From the IMG/VR virus record IMGVR_UViG_3300047160_003205, positions 14,845-78,844 of that record: 64,000 bases of DNA; one strand, written 5' to 3'. Position numbers and translations under genes: made by a program. The notes under the pieces were generated by a model. The model made no database searches. It was not told the origin of the DNA and was given only the letters and a program-made list of their open reading frames with translations. Within the stretch, counting starts at the first letter, position 1, and each line of letters starts with the position of its first letter. The stretch comes from a virus (taxonomy: Duplodnaviria; Caudoviricetes). Below, piece after piece: positions 1,003-52,825 of this stretch.

Positions 1003-1192
1003 TTAGGGGAAGAGCCTTGGGATCAAAGCCATCCTGTCGAAGAATGATGTAGGCAACTGTACATGTTTGATTGAAAAAAATAGGGTTGATGTCGTCCTCA
1101 TCAAAGGACGCTACCCCTAGTAGGTCACCATTCATTGCCCGGGCTTCAATCTCACCGCGATTGTTCGAGTGATCGTAATTCATCTTGCCCAT
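917..1192 (-). CDS. Hypothetical protein
   Basis: 91 aa ORF between dnaE and the nuclease, co-oriented with both. Confidence 0.35.
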   Translation of the reverse strand: MGKMNYDHSNNRGEIEARAMNGDLLGVASFDEDDINPIFFNQTCTVAYIILRQDGFDPKALPLNGSFHKGDGLDIDLTIKSMAMEFSVARR

Positions 1193-4100
1193 CGAGTTCT
1201 CCTAGATACTTGATGGCGGACACTTTGATCATGCGAAAGTCGGGTGGTACAGTGCCCTTTATGGCGTACAAAGACTTCCCCGCACGCGCTTTATCCAACA
1301 TCTTCCGACCGATGCGCTCATAGTCAAACCGTCCGATCTTGCAGAAGATTTCATCCGTATCGTCGCAAAAGTAGGTGTTGAGAACCTGGGTGGGCCCGTT
1401 CAGCTTCCGCCCGTCCCGCTGCGCCAGCTTTTGGGCGTCGTTCTCGTCACGCCACTTAATGCGGCGAGCCATCGCTAAGATCACTACGTTGCCTTCAACT
1501 CCTGGCTGGACCCTCTCAATCGGTAGGATCGGGGTCACTATGTTGAGGGGCGGGGCGGACGTATCTGGGTGTAACCTCCGTATTTGAGCCTTTATGGGGT
1601 AGAGATCATCAATCTCTGTGCGCGCCTCAGTCAGCATTCGCTTAAGGGCTGGCTTGAGCTCGCGTCCGTCCTTACGACTAGCGAGCACTTCAAGAACTTT
1701 CTTCGGCCCAATGCCTTTAATCGCTGTGATGGGGCCGACAAGAACCTGACGTCCATCTTTCTCCGCAATGGACCAACGCTCAGTCGAAGCCTCGGGGTCA
1801 ACTGGGGTGTACGTGATCCCTTCTTTATCAAGCTCTCTAAGTATTGCCAGTTGGTTAGCTGGCTCAGCCTCCGCATCGAGTGTAGCGGCGGCGAACTCCA
1901 GCGGGTAGTGTGCTTTGAGCCAACAGCAGTAGTAGCTGACGAGACCATAAGCGATGGAGTGCGAGTTATGTGTGATAAGTCCATTCTCCAGCGCGAAATT
2001 ATGCTGCTCGGGCATCTCAATATCATAAGTCTCGCGGATACCGGCATCCTCTATCCTTTGGAGCTTCTTAATTGCTTGCTTATAGCCGTTCTCCCATACC
2101 TTAGTCCGGCCGTGGGCATAATGCCGCTTCTTATGGCAACTGTTACAGAGCCAAACTAGGTCTTCAGGTTGGTCCTTACCTGCATTAAAGTCGGTGTGAT
2201 GAGCTTCCATCCGGACTTTGAACTTCCCGCAATCTTCACATGGATCGTCCTGCCTTCGTTCTATGAACTGATCCTTGTAGAAGGCGACCCCGGTTGTCCA
2301 ACCTTTCCCATGTCCCTTTCCCTCTCCAGTAGGTTTATAGCAAGGGATCGGCTCAAACTCGACCGAGGTGAACTCGTCCCCCAAGCCAGCTTCCTTAATA
2401 GGTTTCCACTCGCCACTGATGAGGAAGCGATGCTCGGGCGTACATACGACTTGGCTTCCGTCATCAAATGTGTACCGCTTACAAAGCTTCTTGCCTGATT
2501 TGATGATCCGAACGGCCTTCTGCGGGCGGCCACGATCATCGGGGAACAGGCTGACGAGCCAAGGCTTGGACTTTTGTTGCTTTATCCAACGAGAGGGGGC
2601 TTCCTCATACTTCTCATACAGTTCAGCGATAGTTCTTTCTTGAGTATTGCAGCCTGCTATACTAAGTCTAAGCCTAGTCTCTCCATCTAAACACTTATTG
2701 AACGACCATGAGGCGTATGTACAAATCTGATCCCATATCTCTTTTGCCTTATCTTCTTCAATACCTTGAGATGTCGCTCCTGCTCTAAACTTTATCCAAT
2801 ACTTACCAAAAAATTCATCACCCAATATACCACTCATCGCGTGTCGAATGGCACCCGTATCTTCCCACGAGAACTGACCGATTTCACGAACAATACGTAG
2901 AACTTGCTCTTGATACAGTACAACCCCATAACTATCCTTAGTCAATTCAAGTAATAGCGGGTGTACCTGCGTGATCGGCTCCTCACCCCGCTTCCTCCGA
3001 ACCCAACGCGACGTTCCGCCCGTCGCGAGGGGGCCGGGACGGACGAGGGCCGTCATCGCCGCTACATCCTCAAACCGCGTGAACGTCACCTGGTTCGCGA
3101 CCGAACGCAGGGCGATCCCCGCGAACTGGAAGATGCCGGCGAAGTGTCCGTTATTGAGTACGTCAAATGACGCTTGATCATCGAGAGGAATTTTCTCTAG
3201 GAAGCCATTGGTTGGCTTCTCGCCGATCAACTCTAGGGTGCGCTCAAAGATTGAGAGTTGCTTCAGTCCCAGCGCGTCGATCTTTAAGAGGTTGAGCTCA
3301 GCCGCATCCTTCTTATCACACATGACAGACTTCGACCGCGCGTCCATGGCGACGAAGTCAATGAGGGGGTCTTCAGTGAGAACGACCCCCGCCGCGTGCT
3401 GGGAGGCATTTACAGGGTGTCCTTCGAACTTAGCGGCGATCAGGACCTCAGGATACTCATTCAACAAGGCCTGACCGGCCGCTGTCTCCTTCAGGGTATC
3501 TTCAAGGGTATTATTCGCGCGGCTATCCCCCGAAGTGCGTTCGATAAGGTGGTCCATAAGCTTGTCGGTGCGCCAGATTGGAATTCGTAAAGCTGCGCCT
3601 GCCGCTTTAAGGGCTGATCGTCCCTTGAACATCCCAACCGTTCCGAGCCTCGCCACCCGTTGGCTGCCATACTTTTCCTCCGCATATTGGAACACTAAGT
3701 CCCGGTTGATGTCCGAGAAATCCACATCGATATCAGGTAGCTCAAACCGATTAGCATCAATGAAGCGCTCAAACAGAAGATCGTGCTTGATGGGATCGAT
3801 CTCAGTGATGTTAAGACAGTAGCACACCAGGCTACCACCTGAAGACCCGCGACCAGGCCCAACCACCATCTTGGTCTTCGCCCAATTGACGATGTCGGCG
3901 AGGATGTAGAAGTAGTCATCGAAGTTCTTGTCACTGATGAGCTGTAGCTCGCGCGTCAGGCGCTCCTCATACGTTGGATCAGTGAGGTCTAGTCCTTTCG
4001 TGATAGCGCCATCCTCGCACATCTTCCGCAGGCTTATGGGTTTTTCTGGGACGAGGAGGTGGGCTTTCTTTAGTTGTGCTCGGCAGGCGTCTATCGCCAG

Positions 4101-4823
4101 GTTCCGGTTAGTGAAAGCGTCCGCGATCAGGTCGTCATCAAACCCCACGTTCAGGAAGTGGGCGCGAAGCTCATCATCCGAGAGGATGTAGCGAGGGTAG
4201 GATTGCGTGGAGGCCCGAAAGCCGAGAGCGATCCTGTACTCGTCCTGATCAGTGTCCCGGGGGAAGTAGTTGTCGGATGTGGCGATGAACCGCAGCCCCG
4301 CATTCCGAACGCGACGTACAAGACCAACAGGAGAACTAGGAGCGAGACCGACAAAGTAATCAGACCTCGCATCATAAGCCTCGCCCGGGAGACTATCCAG
4401 GAGCAATCGCTCCCCAGAAATCTTGATCAGCCCCGGTAGCTTAACGGCTTCATCTGCACTTAGCGTCGGTTCCTTTCCGGGGTTCCATGTGGCTTTGTAG
4501 ATGGCTCGATGAAGGTCACTTAGATCATCCTTCGCGAAAAACGACCAGTAGTCCACGGGCGGCTTGTTGAGCCCTAGGCTCGGGACCACCCCGATTTCCA
4601 CCCCATAAAGGGGGCGGATACCCGTCGTCTTACACATCTTTGTCCAGCGGACGAAGGCGAAGGTGGAAAGCCGGTCACTTATCGGCGCGACTGGTGATCC
4701 AATCTCCTGGAGTCGCGAGAGGACGGCTGGAAGATGGCCATAGGCGGTCTTGAAGCTATACCCGGTTCTGACTCGCATGGCTTTTATGCTGCCTCGGCGC
4801 AAACGCGATGAGATGGTGATCAT
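1152..4823 (-). CDS. dnaE: DNA polymerase III alpha subunit (family C), intein-containing
   Basis: PHP-like N-terminus (TGYSF, ATSDNYF), GPGRGSSGGSLV, LLFERFI, PDIDVDFS, SQHAAGVV, KIDALGL, LVRPGP, SFNK/SHSIAYG. Confidence 0.95.
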   Translation of the reverse strand: MITISSRLRRGSIKAMRVRTGYSFKTAYGHLPAVLSRLQEIGSPVAPISDRLSTFAFVRWTKMCKTTGIRPLYGVEIGVVPSLGLNKPPVDYWSFFAKDDLSDLHRAIYKATWNPGKEPTLSADEAVKLPGLIKISGERLLLDSLPGEAYDARSDYFVGLAPSSPVGLVRRVRNAGLRFIATSDNYFPRDTDQDEYRIALGFRASTQSYPRYILSDDELRAHFLNVGFDDDLIADAFTNRNLAIDACRAQLKKAHLLVPEKPISLRKMCEDGAITKGLDLTDPTYEERLTRELQLISDKNFDDYFYILADIVNWAKTKMVVGPGRGSSGGSLVCYCLNITEIDPIKHDLLFERFIDANRFELPDIDVDFSDINRDLVFQYAEEKYGSQRVARLGTVGMFKGRSALKAAGAALRIPIWRTDKLMDHLIERTSGDSRANNTLEDTLKETAAGQALLNEYPEVLIAAKFEGHPVNASQHAAGVVLTEDPLIDFVAMDARSKSVMCDKKDAAELNLLKIDALGLKQLSIFERTLELIGEKPTNGFLEKIPLDDQASFDVLNNGHFAGIFQFAGIALRSVANQVTFTRFEDVAAMTALVRPGPLATGGTSRWVRRKRGEEPITQVHPLLLELTKDSYGVVLYQEQVLRIVREIGQFSWEDTGAIRHAMSGILGDEFFGKYWIKFRAGATSQGIEEDKAKEIWDQICTYASWSFNKCLDGETRLRLSIAGCNTQERTIAELYEKYEEAPSRWIKQQKSKPWLVSLFPDDRGRPQKAVRIIKSGKKLCKRYTFDDGSQVVCTPEHRFLISGEWKPIKEAGLGDEFTSVEFEPIPCYKPTGEGKGHGKGWTTGVAFYKDQFIERRQDDPCEDCGKFKVRMEAHHTDFNAGKDQPEDLVWLCNSCHKKRHYAHGRTKVWENGYKQAIKKLQRIEDAGIRETYDIEMPEQHNFALENGLITHNSHSIAYGLVSYYCCWLKAHYPLEFAAATLDAEAEPANQLAILRELDKEGITYTPVDPEASTERWSIAEKDGRQVLVGPITAIKGIGPKKVLEVLASRKDGRELKPALKRMLTEARTEIDDLYPIKAQIRRLHPDTSAPPLNIVTPILPIERVQPGVEGNVVILAMARRIKWRDENDAQKLAQRDGRKLNGPTQVLNTYFCDDTDEIFCKIGRFDYERIGRKMLDKARAGKSLYAIKGTVPPDFRMIKVSAIKYLGELDGQDELRSLEQSR
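1965..2693 (-). mobile_element. Intein (243 aa) with HNH homing endonuclease, inside DnaE
   Basis: Starts CLDGETRL (Cys codon 2691-2693), has block B TPEHRF, ends ITHN before Ser+1. Internal CEDC...EAHH.D.N...LVWLCNSCHKKRH. Removing it restores SFNKSHSIAY. Confidence 0.93.
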
Positions 4824-28561: not shown

Positions 28562-28611
28562 ACAATCCATCTGCTGACATACAATCCATCTGTTAAAGGA
28601 CAATCCATCTG
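28562..28611 (+). repeat. ACAATCCATCTG x3, 19-bp period
   Basis: Exact copies at 28562, 28581, 28600. Confidence 0.9.
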
Positions 28612-29072
28612 TGTGCCCCGCAGAGCCAGAGGACAGCGGCAGAGGACAGCGAACAGCTGTCTCTGAGCTCTGTCCGCCCCACCAGCGCCCACCAGGCAGG
28701 GCACAGCCGACAGCGCCCATCGGACATGCAGGCAGAGGCCATGCAGACACTAGTACAGTGCAATGCAAGATACCCAGACCCGATCCAGCGCTCAGCCGCG
28801 ACGATCGGTCGCGGTTCACAGGGGCGCGGCGGATCGTCGCGGAACGAAAGGGGAACGAGTATAGACGCCGAGTATTCGTCGCGAATACTTAGGCGAATAC
28901 TTCGAAGGGGGGCGCGGCGAAACGTCGCGGGCCTAGCTCCGCTATAGGGCTTCTCCCCTTCGCCTAGCTCGGCTATATCGGGGGTCCGGTCCGGTCGGAT
29001 CGGGGCTCGGGCCGCTCGGCCCGGGCGGAACGGCTCCCGAAGGGGAGCCCTAGCTAGGTAGGAGAGACCCCT

Positions 29073-29789
29073 ATTTCCGTCTATTCGAACGTCCCCCGCT
29101 ATCCCTTCTCCGGTTTCCGGGGAACCCTCTTCGCCGCCGTTCTCGCGAGCCCGGGCCGCTTCGTCCCGGTCCCGGAAGCGGTCGGGCGCGGCTTTAACGC
29201 GACGACGGCCGCGAAGAAAATTAACCTCCGCTTCGCCCGCGACGCGGCTCCCTTCGAAATCCGGACGCTCGGCCCGGCGAAGGCTCCGACCGAGGTCGGG
29301 CTCTTCGTCGTCGGGGCTATCGGCGAAGGCCGCGTCTCCCGCGATAGCCGCTCGGGCGAGCGGCGAACCGCCGCTAACGACGGCGCCGAAAACTTCGGGA
29401 AGGAACGGATCGTCCCGACGCTCGTCCGCTTCGCCGAGAAGCGCGAGGCCGTTTTCGCCGCTCGCGGCGAACGGATCGAAGCGGCTAAGGCCGTTCTCGC
29501 CGAAGAGGAGGCCGAGGCCGCTCCGGAGGCCGCGCCGCTCGCGCCCGAGGCCGCGCCCGAGGCCGCGCCCGCGCCCGAGGCCGAGGCCGAGGCCGCGCCC
29601 GAGGCCGCGCCCGAGGCCGCGCCCGACGCGCCCGACGCGCCCGAGGCCCCGACCGAGGCCGAGGCCGCGCCCGAGGCTCCCGCGCCCGAGGCCGCTCCGG
29701 AGGCCGAACCGACCGAGGCCGAGGCCGCGCCCGACGCGCCCGAGGCCCCGACCGAGGCCGAGGCCGCGCGCCCGCGTCGCCGCCGCTAA
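29073..29789 (+). CDS. ATT-initiated protein (238 aa): wHTH-like domain, acidic EAAP-repeat tail, RPRRRR end
   Basis: TAGGAGAGAC-N4-ATT; open to TAA 29787-29789; motif spacing shared with ORF 13-450. Absent from the ORF track. Confidence 0.8.
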   Translation: MSVYSNVPRYPFSGFRGTLFAAVLASPGRFVPVPEAVGRGFNATTAAKKINLRFARDAAPFEIRTLGPAKAPTEVGLFVVGAIGEGRVSRDSRSGERRTAANDGAENFGKERIVPTLVRFAEKREAVFAARGERIEAAKAVLAEEEAEAAPEAAPLAPEAAPEAAPAPEAEAEAAPEAAPEAAPDAPDAPEAPTEAEAAPEAPAPEAAPEAEPTEAEAAPDAPEAPTEAEAARPRRRR

Positions 29790-29794
29790 CCCTT

Positions 29795-29820
29795 TCGGGG
29801 GAGGCTCCGGCCTCCCCCGA
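29795..29820 (+). other. Perfect 11-bp hairpin between the two island genes
   Basis: TCGGGGGAGGC-TCCG-GCCTCCCCCGA; no T-tract on either side. Confidence 0.75.
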
Positions 29821-29852
29821 CCCCTTCCCTCGCTCCGATAGGAGAGACGACG

Positions 29853-30044
29853 ATTAAGACGCTCCCGACCCCGACCCCGGAAGCCGCCGCCTTCCGCCTT
29901 CTCGCCCGCCGCGCCGCCTTCGAAGCGGCCCGGCTCCGCGCCGCCGAAACCGGGCGCGCTACCGTCGCGGCGATTTACGCGCCGCGCGGGTTTCGCTCCC
30001 TCGGCGAAGGCGGGTTCCGCGCCTCGCCGGATTACTTCGACTAG
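29853..30044 (+). CDS. ATT-initiated protein (63 aa), Ala/Arg-rich
   Basis: Identical TAGGAGAGAC-N4-ATT context; MKTLPTPTPEAAAFRLLARRAAFEAARLRAAETG...SPDYFD. Confidence 0.7.
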   Translation: MKTLPTPTPEAAAFRLLARRAAFEAARLRAAETGRATVAAIYAPRGFRSLGEGGFRASPDYFD

Positions 30045-30050
30045 CCGCGC

Positions 30051-30122
30051 GCTATACTTCGCGGGCCGGGCGAATACTTCGCTACGGCCCGCGAATACTT
30101 CGCCGACCGCCGCGAATACTTC
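30051..30122 (+). repeat. GCGAATACTTC direct repeats, 21-bp period
   Basis: Exact copies at 30070, 30091, 30112 and a partial copy ending at 30060. Related copies at 28881 and 28893. Confidence 0.9.
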
Positions 30123-30256
30123 ACACACACACCCGGGGGCACGCTTCGCTCCACCACACTGCTTTCCAATGTCGTGAACCTTTGCTGTACACACGGCGCC
30201 ATAGAGCCACACAGTCCCGGAGGATGTAACCCACATTGATGCGGAATTGTACAACT

Positions 30257-30603
30257 TAACCATACCACACCCAACCTCACCCGACCAAGGAGGACCGAAC
30301 CCGACCAAACCCGACCAAACCCCACCTGACCACGTTGTGCCACACCAATCCAAACCTTGCCTCACCGTCCCTTACCAGCAGCAGACCAGACCGTACCTTG
30401 CCACAGCAGGGATTCACCGCACCTTACCACACCGAACCTCACAATAGCATACCTGACCGTACCCGAACAGACCAGACCCCGCCACACCTAATCTTATCAT
30501 ACCACACCTCGCCCAATCAGACCGTGCCGTACCATACCCGATTTTACCAAACCTGACCAGACCACGCCGCATCGGACCAAGCCCGACCACAGGATACCCT
30601 GCC
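30257..30603 (-). ncRNA. GGY-NN pentamer array, candidate guide RNA (VIPR-like)
   Basis: 67 pentamers in three phased blocks (38+5+24), 53 starting GGT/GGC. Begins at the first base after the RAMP gene stop codon. Confidence 0.8.
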
Positions 30604-31233
30604 TTAAGGTTGCGATAGCTCCCACTTAACCACTACGAAGCGTCCGAAGGTTGGCCGCATGTCCCCAAGCCCGACCAAGCGCCCCGCGTCGTCAATCACG
30701 CGCCGAAGAAACACTGGATCGATGTAATCTGACAGTTGCACCATGAACTGGAAGTCTGCTCGCCAGCCAGCCTTGATAGCTGGCCGTGTTCGGGTAACGG
30801 CACCCCGTTGCACCATTGCCCGTCGCCGGTCCTCGTAGTCCCACTTCGTGATTCCCAGCGAGGAGAGGTCATTCAAGCTGATTATGCCAGCACGGAACAG
30901 GTCCATTGCCGACTTTCTGGGCGACCTGGGGTCCTGTTGGAACTTGCTGGCATTGATTATGGAACCTCGCAGGTACTCCCCAGGAATAGAGATTTCCATA
31001 TCAGCATTGCGATAGACATAGGACTCCAAATTGTCAACCTTCTTGGCCTTCGACCCTTTTGGGGCCTTGGCCTTTGCCTCGACCTCATCCGTATTGTAGC
31101 GGTGAAACAACATTGGAGATGACCCCTCTAAGGTCATATCAACAATGTAGGGGACGCTCGCCTGAATAACGGGTTCGCCCCCATTGGAGGCTTGCTCCTC
31201 GGCTAGGTTAAGCAATTTGTCTCGGTTCAACAT
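30604..31233 (-). CDS. Solitary Cas7/RAMP-like protein (Vipr-like)
   Basis: IVDMTLEGSSPMLFH (RRM beta1), ISIPGEYLRGSII (like IPGSSLKG), C-terminal Gly loop GRLVGLGDMRPTFGRF. Start MLNRDK with RBS GAAGGGGG; alternative start 31269. Confidence 0.75.
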   Translation of the reverse strand: MLNRDKLLNLAEEQASNGGEPVIQASVPYIVDMTLEGSSPMLFHRYNTDEVEAKAKAPKGSKAKKVDNLESYVYRNADMEISIPGEYLRGSIINASKFQQDPRSPRKSAMDLFRAGIISLNDLSSLGITKWDYEDRRRAMVQRGAVTRTRPAIKAGWRADFQFMVQLSDYIDPVFLRRVIDDAGRLVGLGDMRPTFGRFVVVKWELSQP

Positions 31234-31272
31234 CGCCCCCTTCATTGGTTGTTGGTCCTTCCTCCCCAAACA

Positions 31273-31506
31273 TCATATCGAGCAGCCGCTCCTGTTGGGC
31301 TTCAGCTTCCACTGGATGGACCTGCTCCATGTGGTTGAGCATGCGAGGCCACCAGTTCTTTCCACCTTTCCCCTTAAAGGGCGGGATGGCGTAGTCACAG
31401 TAGCGGGCCTTGATGAGCCGCCCCTTCGCCTTGTAGTGCGCCTTGACATCCGCCACAGTGACCCTGGGGGTCTCTTCGATTGGGGTCTCAGCCATTCATC
31501 CACCAA
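31273..31506 (-). CDS. Hypothetical protein (frame ambiguous with 31208-31495)
   Basis: Two overlapping candidate ORFs directly upstream of the RAMP gene. Confidence 0.35.
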   Translation of the reverse strand: MVDEWLRPQSKRPPGSLWRMSRRTTRRRGGSSRPATVTTPSRPLRGKVERTGGLACSTTWSRSIQWKLKPNRSGCSI

Positions 31507-31858
31507 TTCATCAAGCGTTCAATAGCAATCCCGAGCCCCCACCCAGCCATTGTGAGCAGTATGAAGCCCCCGCCATAGACGATCACTCGCACAGTCCACT
31601 TCCCAGCTAGGTACGGGATCGAGGGCTTCAAGTCTTCATGCTCCCAGGCTTACGGAAGGCACTTTCAGGAATGCTTTTACTCCGCTGCCGGAGACGCTGA
31701 ATCGTTTCATTCCAGGCCTTCATGCGGCCATCTAGGCGCGTGCGAGCCTTCCGTAGCTTCCTCCTGGGATGCAATCCGTTCAGCTTCCCCACCATCTTCC
31801 TCCGTTCTTTCTTTATCCTACCCCGTCACAGCGTGCGTAGTCTATGCCCTTTCGACCT

Positions 31859-32113
31859 TCACCGTCCGCTACTTAACATATCCAGCATGAAGTCATGGGC
31901 CCAGTTCTGCTTATACCCACACACTGGGCAGGCCCACCCCGACCGGGTAGCCACCAGCTGGCCCAGGTCTTCGCGGTGCTCCAGGGCATAAGCCCGGTGT
32001 TCCTCGTCGCCTCGGTTGTCACCACATGTGAATGGATGCATGTACGGGGAGTTCTGCCACTGGTTGAGGGCCACGCACTGCTCCTCCGTGAAGGGAGCGT
32101 ATATCTTCACCAT
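31859..32113 (-). CDS. Hypothetical Zn-binding protein
   Basis: HPFTC...WACPVCGYKQ; RBS AGGAGG. Confidence 0.6.
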   Translation of the reverse strand: MVKIYAPFTEEQCVALNQWQNSPYMHPFTCGDNRGDEEHRAYALEHREDLGQLVATRSGWACPVCGYKQNWAHDFMLDMLSSGR

Positions 32114-32191
32114 TTCATTCCTCCTATCAGCAGGATCAGGCCAATGGTAGATGTCGTGAGACCAAACACCACCAGGAACAGTAGGAGCGCC

Positions 32192-32458
32192 TTAGTGCGC
32201 ATTATCGTTGGCCACTTCTTCCTTCAGGAGCCAATCGTAGGAGCCGTAGACGACGCTGTCGTCCTCCTCCATTGCCTGGGTGATGGCTTCATCCTCCACC
32301 ATCCCCAGCGAGATGCGCTTGAGCTTTATGAATCGCTTCCGCAGGTCGTCTCGCTTCACGAACTTCAACAGCCTCTCCCGCGTCTCCGCCGGCAGGCGGT
32401 TGGCCTTGTCTAGCTTTAACATCAGCCTCGCCTTCTCTAAGTCAAGCTGTTTCATCAC
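32192..32458 (-). CDS. Hypothetical protein
   Basis: 88 aa helical ORF in the operon. Confidence 0.5.
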   Translation of the reverse strand: MMKQLDLEKARLMLKLDKANRLPAETRERLLKFVKRDDLRKRFIKLKRISLGMVEDEAITQAMEEDDSVVYGSYDWLLKEEVANDNAH

Positions 32459-51875: not shown

Positions 51876-52825
51876 TGGTTGCGACTGTTGCTACTAACCC
51901 CTTCGTCACGACGGTTGGCCAGGGCCTCTTTAGCGCGAATGCCACCACCAATGGCCTCGTTCAAGGGACGGCCTATCCGGACCCGAGCACTCGGATTTCA
52001 TTGCGTCGGGGCTGGCTAGCTTTGTCTGAGACCATTCCAATGTGGGGTGGGGTCGCGATCTATGAGAACGTCCCGGGCTTCACCTCCGGACAGCCAAACC
52101 AAGCACTGGGCGTCCAGGTGGGTCGAGCGACTTCAATCTTGGGCGGTTCCACGCCAATCGCGGGGTTCTCGGTCTTCGATCAGGCTTACGCCATGGTCAA
52201 TTCGCCCGCATCCCCAGTTCCGCTGGCGCCGTCGTATGGCCAGGTTAACAGTTATGCCCTGGGCAGCGGAGCCCGTGTCGCAGTCGCTTGCGACCCCGGC
52301 CTCGTGTCGGCCTGGGGTGGCCCGGTCGGTTCTGGCCCGGCATGGCAGAACGTTACCTTTGGCGGCGGTTCGGGTGGCCATCCTCCGATCACTTGGGACC
52401 TGACGAATCAGATACTTGTCCCGTACATTAACACGGGCACCACCCAGAACGTCTCAGCAGTTTCCTACGCTATTGGCACTGGCCTCGTCACCCTAACCAC
52501 TACGGCTCCAGTGAACCTGTCGCCTGGGGATTCAGTCTTTGTGGCGAACATCGGTGGGACTGGTTCGTTTGCCAGCTGCAACGGCGGTCCTTTTACCACT
52601 GTTACGGGTACCACTGGATCCACCGTCATCTACCAGATTGCTTCCGGTCTTACCATGACCACGACTGCGGGTGGCACCACGACAGTGAAGACGGGTACTA
52701 CCCCGCTTCCGGCGGCCCTGCTGGAAGTCCAGGCTTCCGGTTGTATGACTGTGGCTTATACTACTGCGACCAACACAGCCGCTTGGAACTTCTCCGGGGC
52801 CTGTGCTGTTATTCAACTGATCTAA
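51875..52825 (+). CDS. Capsid decoration/cement protein with inserted beta domain
   Basis: GLVQGTAYPDP, MWGGVAIYE, ARVAVACDP; immediately before the MCP gene. Confidence 0.7.
   Translation: MVATVATNPFVTTVGQGLFSANATTNGLVQGTAYPDPSTRISLRRGWLALSETIPMWGGVAIYENVPGFTSGQPNQALGVQVGRATSILGGSTPIAGFSVFDQAYAMVNSPASPVPLAPSYGQVNSYALGSGARVAVACDPGLVSAWGGPVGSGPAWQNVTFGGGSGGHPPITWDLTNQILVPYINTGTTQNVSAVSYAIGTGLVTLTTTAPVNLSPGDSVFVANIGGTGSFASCNGGPFTTVTGTTGSTVIYQIASGLTMTTTAGGTTTVKTGTTPLPAALLEVQASGCMTVAYTTATNTAAWNFSGACAVIQLI

What the first reader, a model, noticed from the sequence alone, without database searches (positions are those of the whole stretch)
30257..31233. Solitary Cas7/RAMP-like gene followed directly by a GGY-NN pentamer array: candidate non-CRISPR RNA-guided system (VIPR-like)
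Seen: the 209-aa ORF has RAMP/Cas7 hallmarks (TLEGSSPML, ISIPGEYLRGSII, terminal Gly loop VGLGDMRPTFGRF), and no other cas gene or CRISPR repeat is in the window. Its TAA is followed at once by GGC-AG GGT-AT ..., a 347-bp run of 67 pentamers, 53 starting GGY. Established: Cas7 polymerises along guide RNA with a fixed nucleotide period. Inference: many copies of this protein coat the array RNA, bind the constant GGY triplets and display the NN pairs as a gapped guide, perhaps against competing phages or host genes. I recall recent reports of phage 'VIPR' systems (Cas7-like Vipr plus GGY/NN RNA). That is from memory and needs checking; if correct, this locus is a new member with new guides rather than a new class.
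Basis: partly seen in the sequence, partly recalled or inferred. Interest (0 to 1): 0.95.

Follow-up and report, generated by a model that had tools for sequence, protein, structure and literature searches.

The report
Phage VIPR system: Vipr plus guide array
An uncultured 79-kb phage carries a small Cas7-like gene followed directly by about 68 five-base GGY-NN repeats; this is a genuine new example of the VIPR RNA-guided DNA-silencing systems first described in 2026 preprints, so it is real but not a new kind, and what its guides target is still unknown.

Summary
On the minus strand, a 209-aa gene (30604-31233) ends in TAA. It is followed at once by 68 pentamers, 53 of them GGY-NN (P about 3e-61). 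Positions 1-3 are nearly fixed and positions 4-5 nearly random. One correction: the array is not in a single register, because an 11-nt break and a 1-nt shift split it into three blocks.

The protein is a Vipr:
- A family profile matches the solved SUSP1 Vipr (PDB 36pp) at E 2.7e-10.
- Four of the five residues that hold GGY in SUSP1 Vipr are conserved.

In 75 of 82 relatives' loci a GGY-NN array lies next to the gene, on the same strand in all but 65 bp.

This clade differs from the SUSP1 model. I found no accessory (vap) gene, no conserved 3' tail and no promoter-like site. The array abuts the stop codon, closest to the paper's "staggered" arrays.

The 1-nt-skip code works in this clade: a relative's guide matches rival vipr genes, including this one at 22/26. 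I found no convincing target for this phage's own guides.

This scan already holds 158 VIPR notes from at least 134 genomes. Verdict: new member of a known kind.

The parts
30604..31233 (-). vipr gene. It encodes a 209-aa minimal RAMP (Cas7-like) protein with an RRM core, an N-terminal helical insert, a thumb (about residues 126-157) and a G-loop, GLGDMRPTFGRF (188-199).
30414..30603 (-). vrRNA array block A. It has 38 pentamers in one register, 29 of them GGY-NN, and starts at the base after the TAA stop. That is probably about three guides.
30403..30413 (-). An 11-nt non-repeat break (ATCCCTGCTGT) that shifts the pentamer register.
30378..30402 (-). vrRNA array block B. It has 5 pentamers, 4 of them GGY-NN, followed by one extra base (30377).
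30257..30376 (-). vrRNA array block C. It has 24 pentamers, 20 of them GGY-NN, in runs of 8 (two with a purine at position 3), 8 and 6 units separated by AACGT and TCCTT. A degenerate 25th unit, AGTTG, runs to 30252.
30758..30796 (-). Site inside vipr (thumb-coding codons, about T147-A158) that a related phage's first guide (L053) matches under the 1-nt-skip rule at 22 of 26 NN bases. The skipped bases fall on wobble positions.

Best explanation
This is a phage-encoded VIPR system. The 209-aa protein is a Vipr, a minimal Cas7-like RAMP. The 347 nt after its stop codon encode vrRNA guides made of GGY-NN pentamers. I infer the working by homology to the SUSP1 system. The array is transcribed together with vipr as its 3' extension. 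Vipr protomers polymerise along the RNA, one per pentamer, holding each GGY and presenting each NN pair. The filament then binds double-stranded DNA whose sequence reads xNN xNN ..., with one base skipped per unit, and blocks transcription of the bound gene. The likeliest targets are genes of a competing phage or other mobile element in the same host. With 68 units and guides of about 8-13 units in this clade, the array would give roughly 5-8 guides. Shown here: the array, the homology, the fold, the conserved GGY-contact residues, the conserved gene-array linkage across relatives, and that the skip code predicts real targets in this clade. Inferred: transcription, processing, RNP formation, silencing, and the target class.
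For: 1. The array is far beyond chance, with fixed GGY and near-random NN.
2. Sequence homology to the experimentally solved SUSP1 Vipr: profile E 2.7e-10 across almost the full length, and pairwise E 1e-8.
4. The SUSP1 GGY contacts H17, R138, D177 and R179 align to H44, R150, D191 and R193. H44, R150 and R193 are invariant and D191 nearly invariant (90% or more) in 36 homologues. K33 aligns to K59.
5. In 75 of 82 relatives' loci a GGY-NN array lies within 600 nt of vipr. Same-strand arrays total 15,733 bp against 65 bp on the opposite strand, and 40 arrays start within 40 nt of the stop codon.
6. The genome is a phage, with terminase, portal, DNA polymerase and primase, and has no CRISPR array or cas genes.
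7. The 1-nt-skip rule holds in this clade. The first guide of L053 matches other phages' vipr genes in wobble phase: L019 24/26, L030 and L023 23/26, this window 22/26, its own gene only 20/26. About 0.003 matches this good are expected by chance. The pattern matches the vipr-targeting guides with lower self-match reported in 10.64898/2026.10.15.759431.
8. The array does not match its own genome above shuffled controls, as the paper reports for its own systems.
Against: There are no expression data. I found no convincing target for this phage's own guides, despite seven pattern scans of IMG/VR, one metagenome scan and one genome scan. There is no accessory vap gene, no conserved structured 3' tail and no promoter-like site for the array. 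How individual guides would be cut out is therefore unknown, and this differs from the only experimentally dissected type. The residue that stacks on G2 in SUSP1 (W178, which is F in most relatives) is M192 here. 15 of the 68 units are degenerate.
Confidence: 0.9

Rival explanations
1. The locus is a decaying or inactive VIPR remnant. The protein is a true Vipr homologue, but the array, with 22% degenerate units and two register breaks, no longer yields working guides.
For: 15 of 68 units are not GGY, and canonical runs are only 2-8 units long. No target was found in any collection. M192 replaces the aromatic residue that stacks on G2.
Against: The gene is intact and keeps the other conserved family residues checked. 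Relatives show about the same share of degenerate units, roughly 10% G-n-Y, and so does SUSP1. In relatives, degenerate units inside guides still pair in register with predicted targets. 13 of the 15 degenerate units keep the pyrimidine at position 3. My target searches required exact matches and were therefore insensitive.
Confidence: 0.07
2. The array is mainly a cis-acting 3'-UTR element that binds Vipr to regulate vipr mRNA stability or translation. On this reading it is not a source of trans-acting DNA guides.
For: The array starts at the base after the stop codon, with no promoter or terminator of its own. In relatives it runs straight into the next gene's ribosome-binding site.
Against: The NN positions are near maximum entropy and differ completely between relatives. 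That is the signature of guide information and would not be needed for a pure protein-binding platform. A relative's guide decodes to a real gene in wobble phase.
Confidence: 0.02
3. The pentamer tract is a protein-coding or purely structural low-complexity repeat, and its position next to a RAMP-like gene is coincidental.
For: Open reading frames of 40-70 codons run through the tract on both strands because it lacks stop codons.
Against: A 5-nt period with 1-nt and 11-nt register shifts does not fit a conserved reading frame. The tract's ORFs match only other arrays. The gene-array linkage is strand-specific in 75 of 82 loci.
Confidence: 0.01

Closest known systems
Type II VIPR of Escherichia phage SUSP1 and the Pseudomonas fulva prophage (bioRxiv 10.64898/2026.04.26.720920 and .720927; PDB 36pp)
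   Same: Both have a homologous Vipr protein (24% identity, profile E 2.7e-10) with the same fold elements and GGY-contact residues. Both have GGY-NN pentamer RNA genes next to vipr on the same strand and are phage-borne. Both have occasional internal degenerate units. The 1-nt-skip code and vipr-targeting guides are seen in this clade too.
   Different: SUSP1 has a vap1 gene after vipr, and four separate vrRNAs of about 100 nt, each with 9-16 repeats and a conserved 3' tail of about 40 nt with a pseudoknot. Here I found no vap, no tail and no separate units. There is one continuous array of about 68 units starting at the stop codon. W178 is replaced by M192.
VIPR systems with 'staggered' vrRNA arrays (fig. 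S18 legend of 10.64898/2026.04.26.720920)
   Same: Both have a continuous pentamer array in which one guide runs directly into the next. This clade shows that in L053, where a 13-unit guide is followed seamlessly by further units.
   Different: I know this only from a figure legend. No sequences, type assignment or supplement were available, so I could not test identity with that architecture or place the locus in any of types I-VII.
Cas7-family RAMPs of class 1 CRISPR-Cas (Csm3 of type III-A, Cas7 of type VII, Cmr4)
   Different: Sequence identity is 10-16%, and no Pfam or NCBIfam Cas7 model matches. There is no CRISPR array, no Cas10, Cas5, Cas6 or small subunit. The period is 5 nt with 2 of every 5 guide bases read, not 6 nt with 5 of 6 read.

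Membership tests
VIPR (Vipr + vrRNA) | The protein is homologous to an experimentally characterised Vipr. | tested here: met
   A profile of 36 homologues matches PDB 36pp_D 'SUSP1 Vipr protein' at E 2.7e-10, residues 31-201 against 5-188. The single sequence gives E 2.3e-4. BLASTP against the SUSP1 CDS gives E 1e-8 and 24% identity over 187 aa.
VIPR (Vipr + vrRNA) | Residues that hold GGY in SUSP1 Vipr (H17, R138, D177, W178, R179). | tested here: met
   These align to H44, R150, D191, M192 and R193 (with residue roles). Four of five are identical; H44, R150 and R193 are invariant and D191 nearly invariant (90% or more) in alignment A1. The stacking W is F in most relatives and M here.
VIPR (Vipr + vrRNA) | Tandem YNNGG/GGYNN repeats (at least 4, typically 9-16 per guide) next to vipr, with GGY conserved and NN hypervariable. 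| tested here: met
   There are 68 units, 53 of them GGY. Entropy is 0.56-0.85 bits at positions 1-3 and 1.92-1.99 bits at positions 4-5. 75 of 82 relatives have same-strand arrays.
VIPR (Vipr + vrRNA) | No CRISPR array and no other cas genes; phage or proviral context. | tested here: met
   No spaced repeats occur in the 78.8-kb genome. There are no cas hits. Terminase, portal, DNA polymerase and primase are present.
VIPR (Vipr + vrRNA) | An accessory vap gene in the locus (typical of the family, not universal). | tested here: not met
   No flanking ORF of this phage recurs next to vipr in 81 relatives. No neighbour family is present in more than 15 of 81 loci. The neighbours have no family hits.
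VIPR type II (SUSP1-like) | An invariable structured 3' tail (pseudoknot) capping each vrRNA. | tested here: not met
   There is no repeated tail within the array and no Rfam or hammerhead match. The 3' flank folds no better than shuffles, z -1.2. Relatives' arrays run into the next gene's ribosome-binding site. SUSP1 tails were seen in the positive control.
VIPR (Vipr + vrRNA) | Natural targets that match under the 1-nt-skip rule at >=80% of NN bases. | tested here: inconclusive
   For this phage's guides I found only chance-level candidates. For the clade the rule holds: the L053 guide matches vipr genes at 24/26, 23/26 and 22/26, in wobble phase.
VIPR (Vipr + vrRNA) | vrRNAs are expressed and co-purify with Vipr, and the RNP represses matched dsDNA. 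| not testable with these tools
   This needs sRNA-seq, pull-down and reporter assays.
Class 1 CRISPR-Cas Cas7 (Csm3/Cmr4/type VII Cas7) | Encoded with a CRISPR array and partner cas genes, and matched by curated Cas7 sequence models. | tested here: not met
   There are no Pfam, NCBIfam or PADLOC matches, no CRISPR-like repeats, and only fold-level similarity at 10-16% identity.

The most novel reading that the evidence does not exclude
This very large, mostly uncultured clade (over 5,600 protein clusters at 90% identity) may be a VIPR architecture not yet dissected. In it, guides would be made from the vipr mRNA's own 3' extension, with no tail, ribozyme, promoter or accessory protein. Guide ends would be set by non-G 'punctuation' units or by the Vipr filament itself. 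In this phage, one such 8-unit guide (30292-30331) would silence a conserved 126-aa gene of an abundant unrelated phage family.
Probability: 0.2. Interest if true: 0.5.

Novelty: new member of a known kind. Interest (0 to 1): 0.3.

Why it matters
VIPR is a newly described class of RNA-guided DNA recognition, proposed to predate CRISPR, so each verified natural system adds guides and architectures to a small experimental base. This locus shows three things:
- A Vipr clade that is almost absent from cultured phages, with one GenBank relative mis-annotated as an HTH regulator, is abundant in metagenomes.
- It keeps the GGY-binding residues.
- It works with a stripped-down layout of gene plus one continuous array, and obeys the same 1-nt-skip code, including guides aimed at rival vipr genes.

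It does not change the picture of what VIPR is. Its practical value is as a compact candidate for studying how guides are made without a tail.

Tried and rejected
1. A single-sequence AlphaFold run gave pLDDT 37 and was unusable. The run with an alignment worked.
2. Self-targeting: the best matches of the array to its own 78.8-kb genome equal shuffled controls.
3. Guides against 81 relatives' loci: nothing reached 17/20 or better.
4. IMG/VR exact scans:
   - A4-A12 and C10-C19 gave 0 hits.
   - C1-C8 gave 32 hits, C17-C24 gave 6, A14-A21 gave 19 and A24-A31 gave 2. All were unrelated and none extended.
   - C10-C17 gave 31 hits, about 24 of them from one phage family, in wobble phase inside a 126-aa ORF (L082:6235-6612). 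But 16 specified bases give about 30 chance hits. No second guide converges on that family, and the family shares no genes with this phage. I keep it only as a weak candidate.
5. Metagenome scan of A4-A12: L185 extends to 11 perfect units (A2-A12). It lies at the 3' end of a bacterial yloV-like gene with the skipped base off the wobble position. Chance probability is about 0.1-0.2, so I rejected it.
6. Genome scan of A24-A31: 96 hits, none extending.
7. The idea that M192 (loss of the G2-stacking aromatic) relaxes G2 and explains the G-n-Y units: rejected. Relatives with F have the same share of G-n-Y units, about 10%.
8. The idea that relatives' arrays broadly target this phage: only the L053 hit on vipr.
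9. Hammerhead ribozymes or other known RNAs between guides: none.
10. Host identification through terminase relatives: uninformative.
11. Assignment to VIPR types I-VII: not possible, because the paper's supplement is not held.

Full report
**Observation.** The gene and the array lie on the minus strand. The ORF at 30604-31233 encodes 209 aa and has a good Shine-Dalgarno sequence (AAGGGGG) before its ATG. Its TAA is followed with no gap by GGCAG GGTAT ....

Read in one register from 30603, GGY falls in phase 0 for 38 units (30603-30414). An 11-nt break, ATCCCTGCTGT, then shifts the phase. Five more units follow (30402-30378), then one extra base, then 24-25 units (30376-30257, or to 30252).

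GGY occurs at 3.85% of minus-strand positions, so 2.6 of 68 are expected (binomial P about 3e-61). Positions 1-3 carry 0.56, 0.85 and 0.85 bits of entropy and positions 4-5 carry 1.99 and 1.92 bits. All 16 dinucleotides occur. 13 of the 15 degenerate units still have a pyrimidine at position 3. A scan of the whole window finds nothing comparable; the only other hit is an 8-unit chance run inside a coding ORF at 52309-52348.

**The protein.** Pfam, NCBIfam and PADLOC give nothing. PHROGs gives phrog_4652, of unknown function, at E 5.7e-16. Against PDB sequences, the only hit is 36pp_D 'SUSP1 Vipr protein'. The single sequence scores E 2.3e-4, and a profile of 36 homologues scores E 2.7e-10 over residues 31-201 against 5-188. 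I fetched the SUSP1 locus (KT454805.2, L170). BLASTP gives 24% identity over 187 residues at E 1e-8.

The cryo-EM paper names the SUSP1 residues that hold GGY: H17 and D177 for G1, R138 and W178 for G2, and R179 for Y3. In the printed alignments these correspond to H44, D191, R150, M192 and R193. K33 corresponds to K59. H44, R150 and R193 are invariant and D191 nearly invariant (90% or more) in the 36-sequence alignment. Position 192 is F in most relatives.

**Family and linkage.** The family is large. 5,645 clusters at 90% identity score E<=1e-3. There are 1,153 representatives at 50% identity, and 374 IMG/VR contigs encode a relative. Only one GenBank phage has a relative, DSL-LC04, where it is annotated as an HTH regulator.

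In 75 of 82 relatives' loci a GGY-NN array lies within 600 nt of the gene: 18 upstream only, 32 downstream only, 25 both. 40 arrays start within 40 nt of the stop codon. Same-strand arrays total 15,733 bp against 65 bp on the opposite strand. The NN content differs completely between relatives.

**Context.** The window is bases 14845-78844 of a single 78,844-bp contig. The contig encodes a terminase large subunit, a portal protein, a DNA polymerase and a primase, so it is a phage. The genome has no CRISPR-like repeats.

**Comparison with the published systems.** VIPR is described in three 2026 preprints. Vipr is a minimal RAMP. vrRNAs are 9-16 YNNGG repeats, with a conserved 3' tail in type II. 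The RNP binds dsDNA by pairing only the NN bases and skipping one target base per unit, and it represses transcription. Natural targets are satellites, prophages and other VIPR loci. Seven types with various array layouts are described (tandem, staggered, hammerhead-interspersed, single).

As a positive control, the SUSP1 intergenic regions show separate vrRNAs, each with a hairpin tail. This locus differs in these ways:
- No flanking ORF is conserved next to vipr in relatives, so I see no vap.
- There is no repeated tail.
- There is no ribozyme or other Rfam match.
- There is no promoter-like site, and the only terminator-like matches in 29900-32300 are at chance level and lie away from the array.
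- The 3' flank folds no better than shuffles.
- In relatives the array runs into the next gene's ribosome-binding site.

The nearest published description is the 'staggered' array of fig. S18. The supplement is not held, so I could not assign a type.

**Does the code work in this clade?** I decoded all relatives' arrays with the 1-nt-skip rule and compared them with all fetched loci. The first guide of L053 (units 2-14 after its stop codon) matches the thumb-coding part of other phages' vipr genes. The scores are L019 24/26, L030 and L023 23/26, and this window 22/26 at 30758-30796. Its own gene scores only 20/26. The skipped bases fall on wobble positions. About 0.003 matches this good are expected by chance.

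This repeats what the third preprint reports for SUSP1-family phages: vipr-targeting guides with lower self-match. Five further independent 8-of-8-unit matches were found where about one was expected. They suggest guides of about 8-13 units, and they show that degenerate units inside a guide still pair in register.

**Targets of this phage's guides.** There is no self-match above shuffled controls and no match in relatives' loci. The collection scans accept only exact patterns.

In IMG/VR, most seeds gave either nothing or unrelated chance hits. The C10-C17 seed is the exception. It is the eight canonical units between AACGT and TCCTT. About 24 of its 31 hits belong to one phage family. They fall in wobble phase on codons 64-71 (GDRKRKPC) of a 126-aa ORF of unknown function next to an endolysin gene. 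Sixteen specified bases give about 30 chance hits, no other guide converges on that family, and the family shares no genes with this phage. It is a weak candidate only.

The metagenome scan gave one 11-unit perfect match (A2-A12) in a bacterial yloV-like gene. It is off the wobble phase and within chance. The genome scan gave nothing that extends. The targets remain unknown.

**Verdict.** This is a new member of a known kind (VIPR). It belongs to a large, mostly uncultured clade with a tail-less, vap-less, continuous array. Earlier notes of this scan report the same kind of system 158 times in at least 134 genomes, so it is not rare in this survey. Confidence that this is a VIPR system is 0.9. 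Its function as a silencer of competing mobile elements is inferred by homology.

Noticed in passing
L053:3124-3188 (IMGVR_UViG_3300045282_000100) against window 30758-30796: The first guide of a related phage's 100-unit array decodes, under the 1-nt-skip rule, to the conserved thumb-coding region of vipr genes. It matches L019 at 24/26, L030 and L023 at 23/26, this window at 22/26, and its own gene at only 20/26. This is a guide aimed at rival VIPR systems that avoids its own gene.
   Followed up: yes
window 28600-30130: Directly downstream of the array on the minus strand lies a stretch of 75% GC with 12-nt and 18-nt tandem repeats (CCGAGGCCGCGC, 29508-29769) and three 21-nt repeats containing GAAGTATTCGCG (30054-30122). 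Other agents' notes call 28821-30122 a CA/TG-free island with ATT-started genes. I did not test that claim.
   Followed up: no
L082:6235-6612 and about 23 homologous IMG/VR loci (L084-L112): An abundant phage family carries a conserved 126-aa ORF (phrog_24524, unknown function) next to an endolysin gene. Its codons 64-71 match the window's guide units C10-C17 (30292-30331) exactly and in wobble phase. This could be a real target or chance.
   Followed up: partly
OR003939.1 22429-23046 (L290:2465-3082): The only GenBank phage relative of this Vipr, in Phage DSL-LC04 (61.5 kb, from lake water), is annotated as a 'helix-turn-helix transcriptional regulator'. GGY-NN arrays lie just upstream of it (L290:2176-2428), so the annotation is probably wrong.
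   Followed up: partly
window 1155-4823 (-): The 1,223-aa DNA polymerase also matches HNH endonuclease families around residues 852-970. This suggests an inserted homing-endonuclease or intein-like segment.
   Followed up: no
window 31211-31495 (-): A 95-aa ORF with no family match overlaps the vipr start by about 25 nt, which suggests translational coupling. It has no homologue next to vipr in 81 relatives, so it is probably not a vap.
   Followed up: partly
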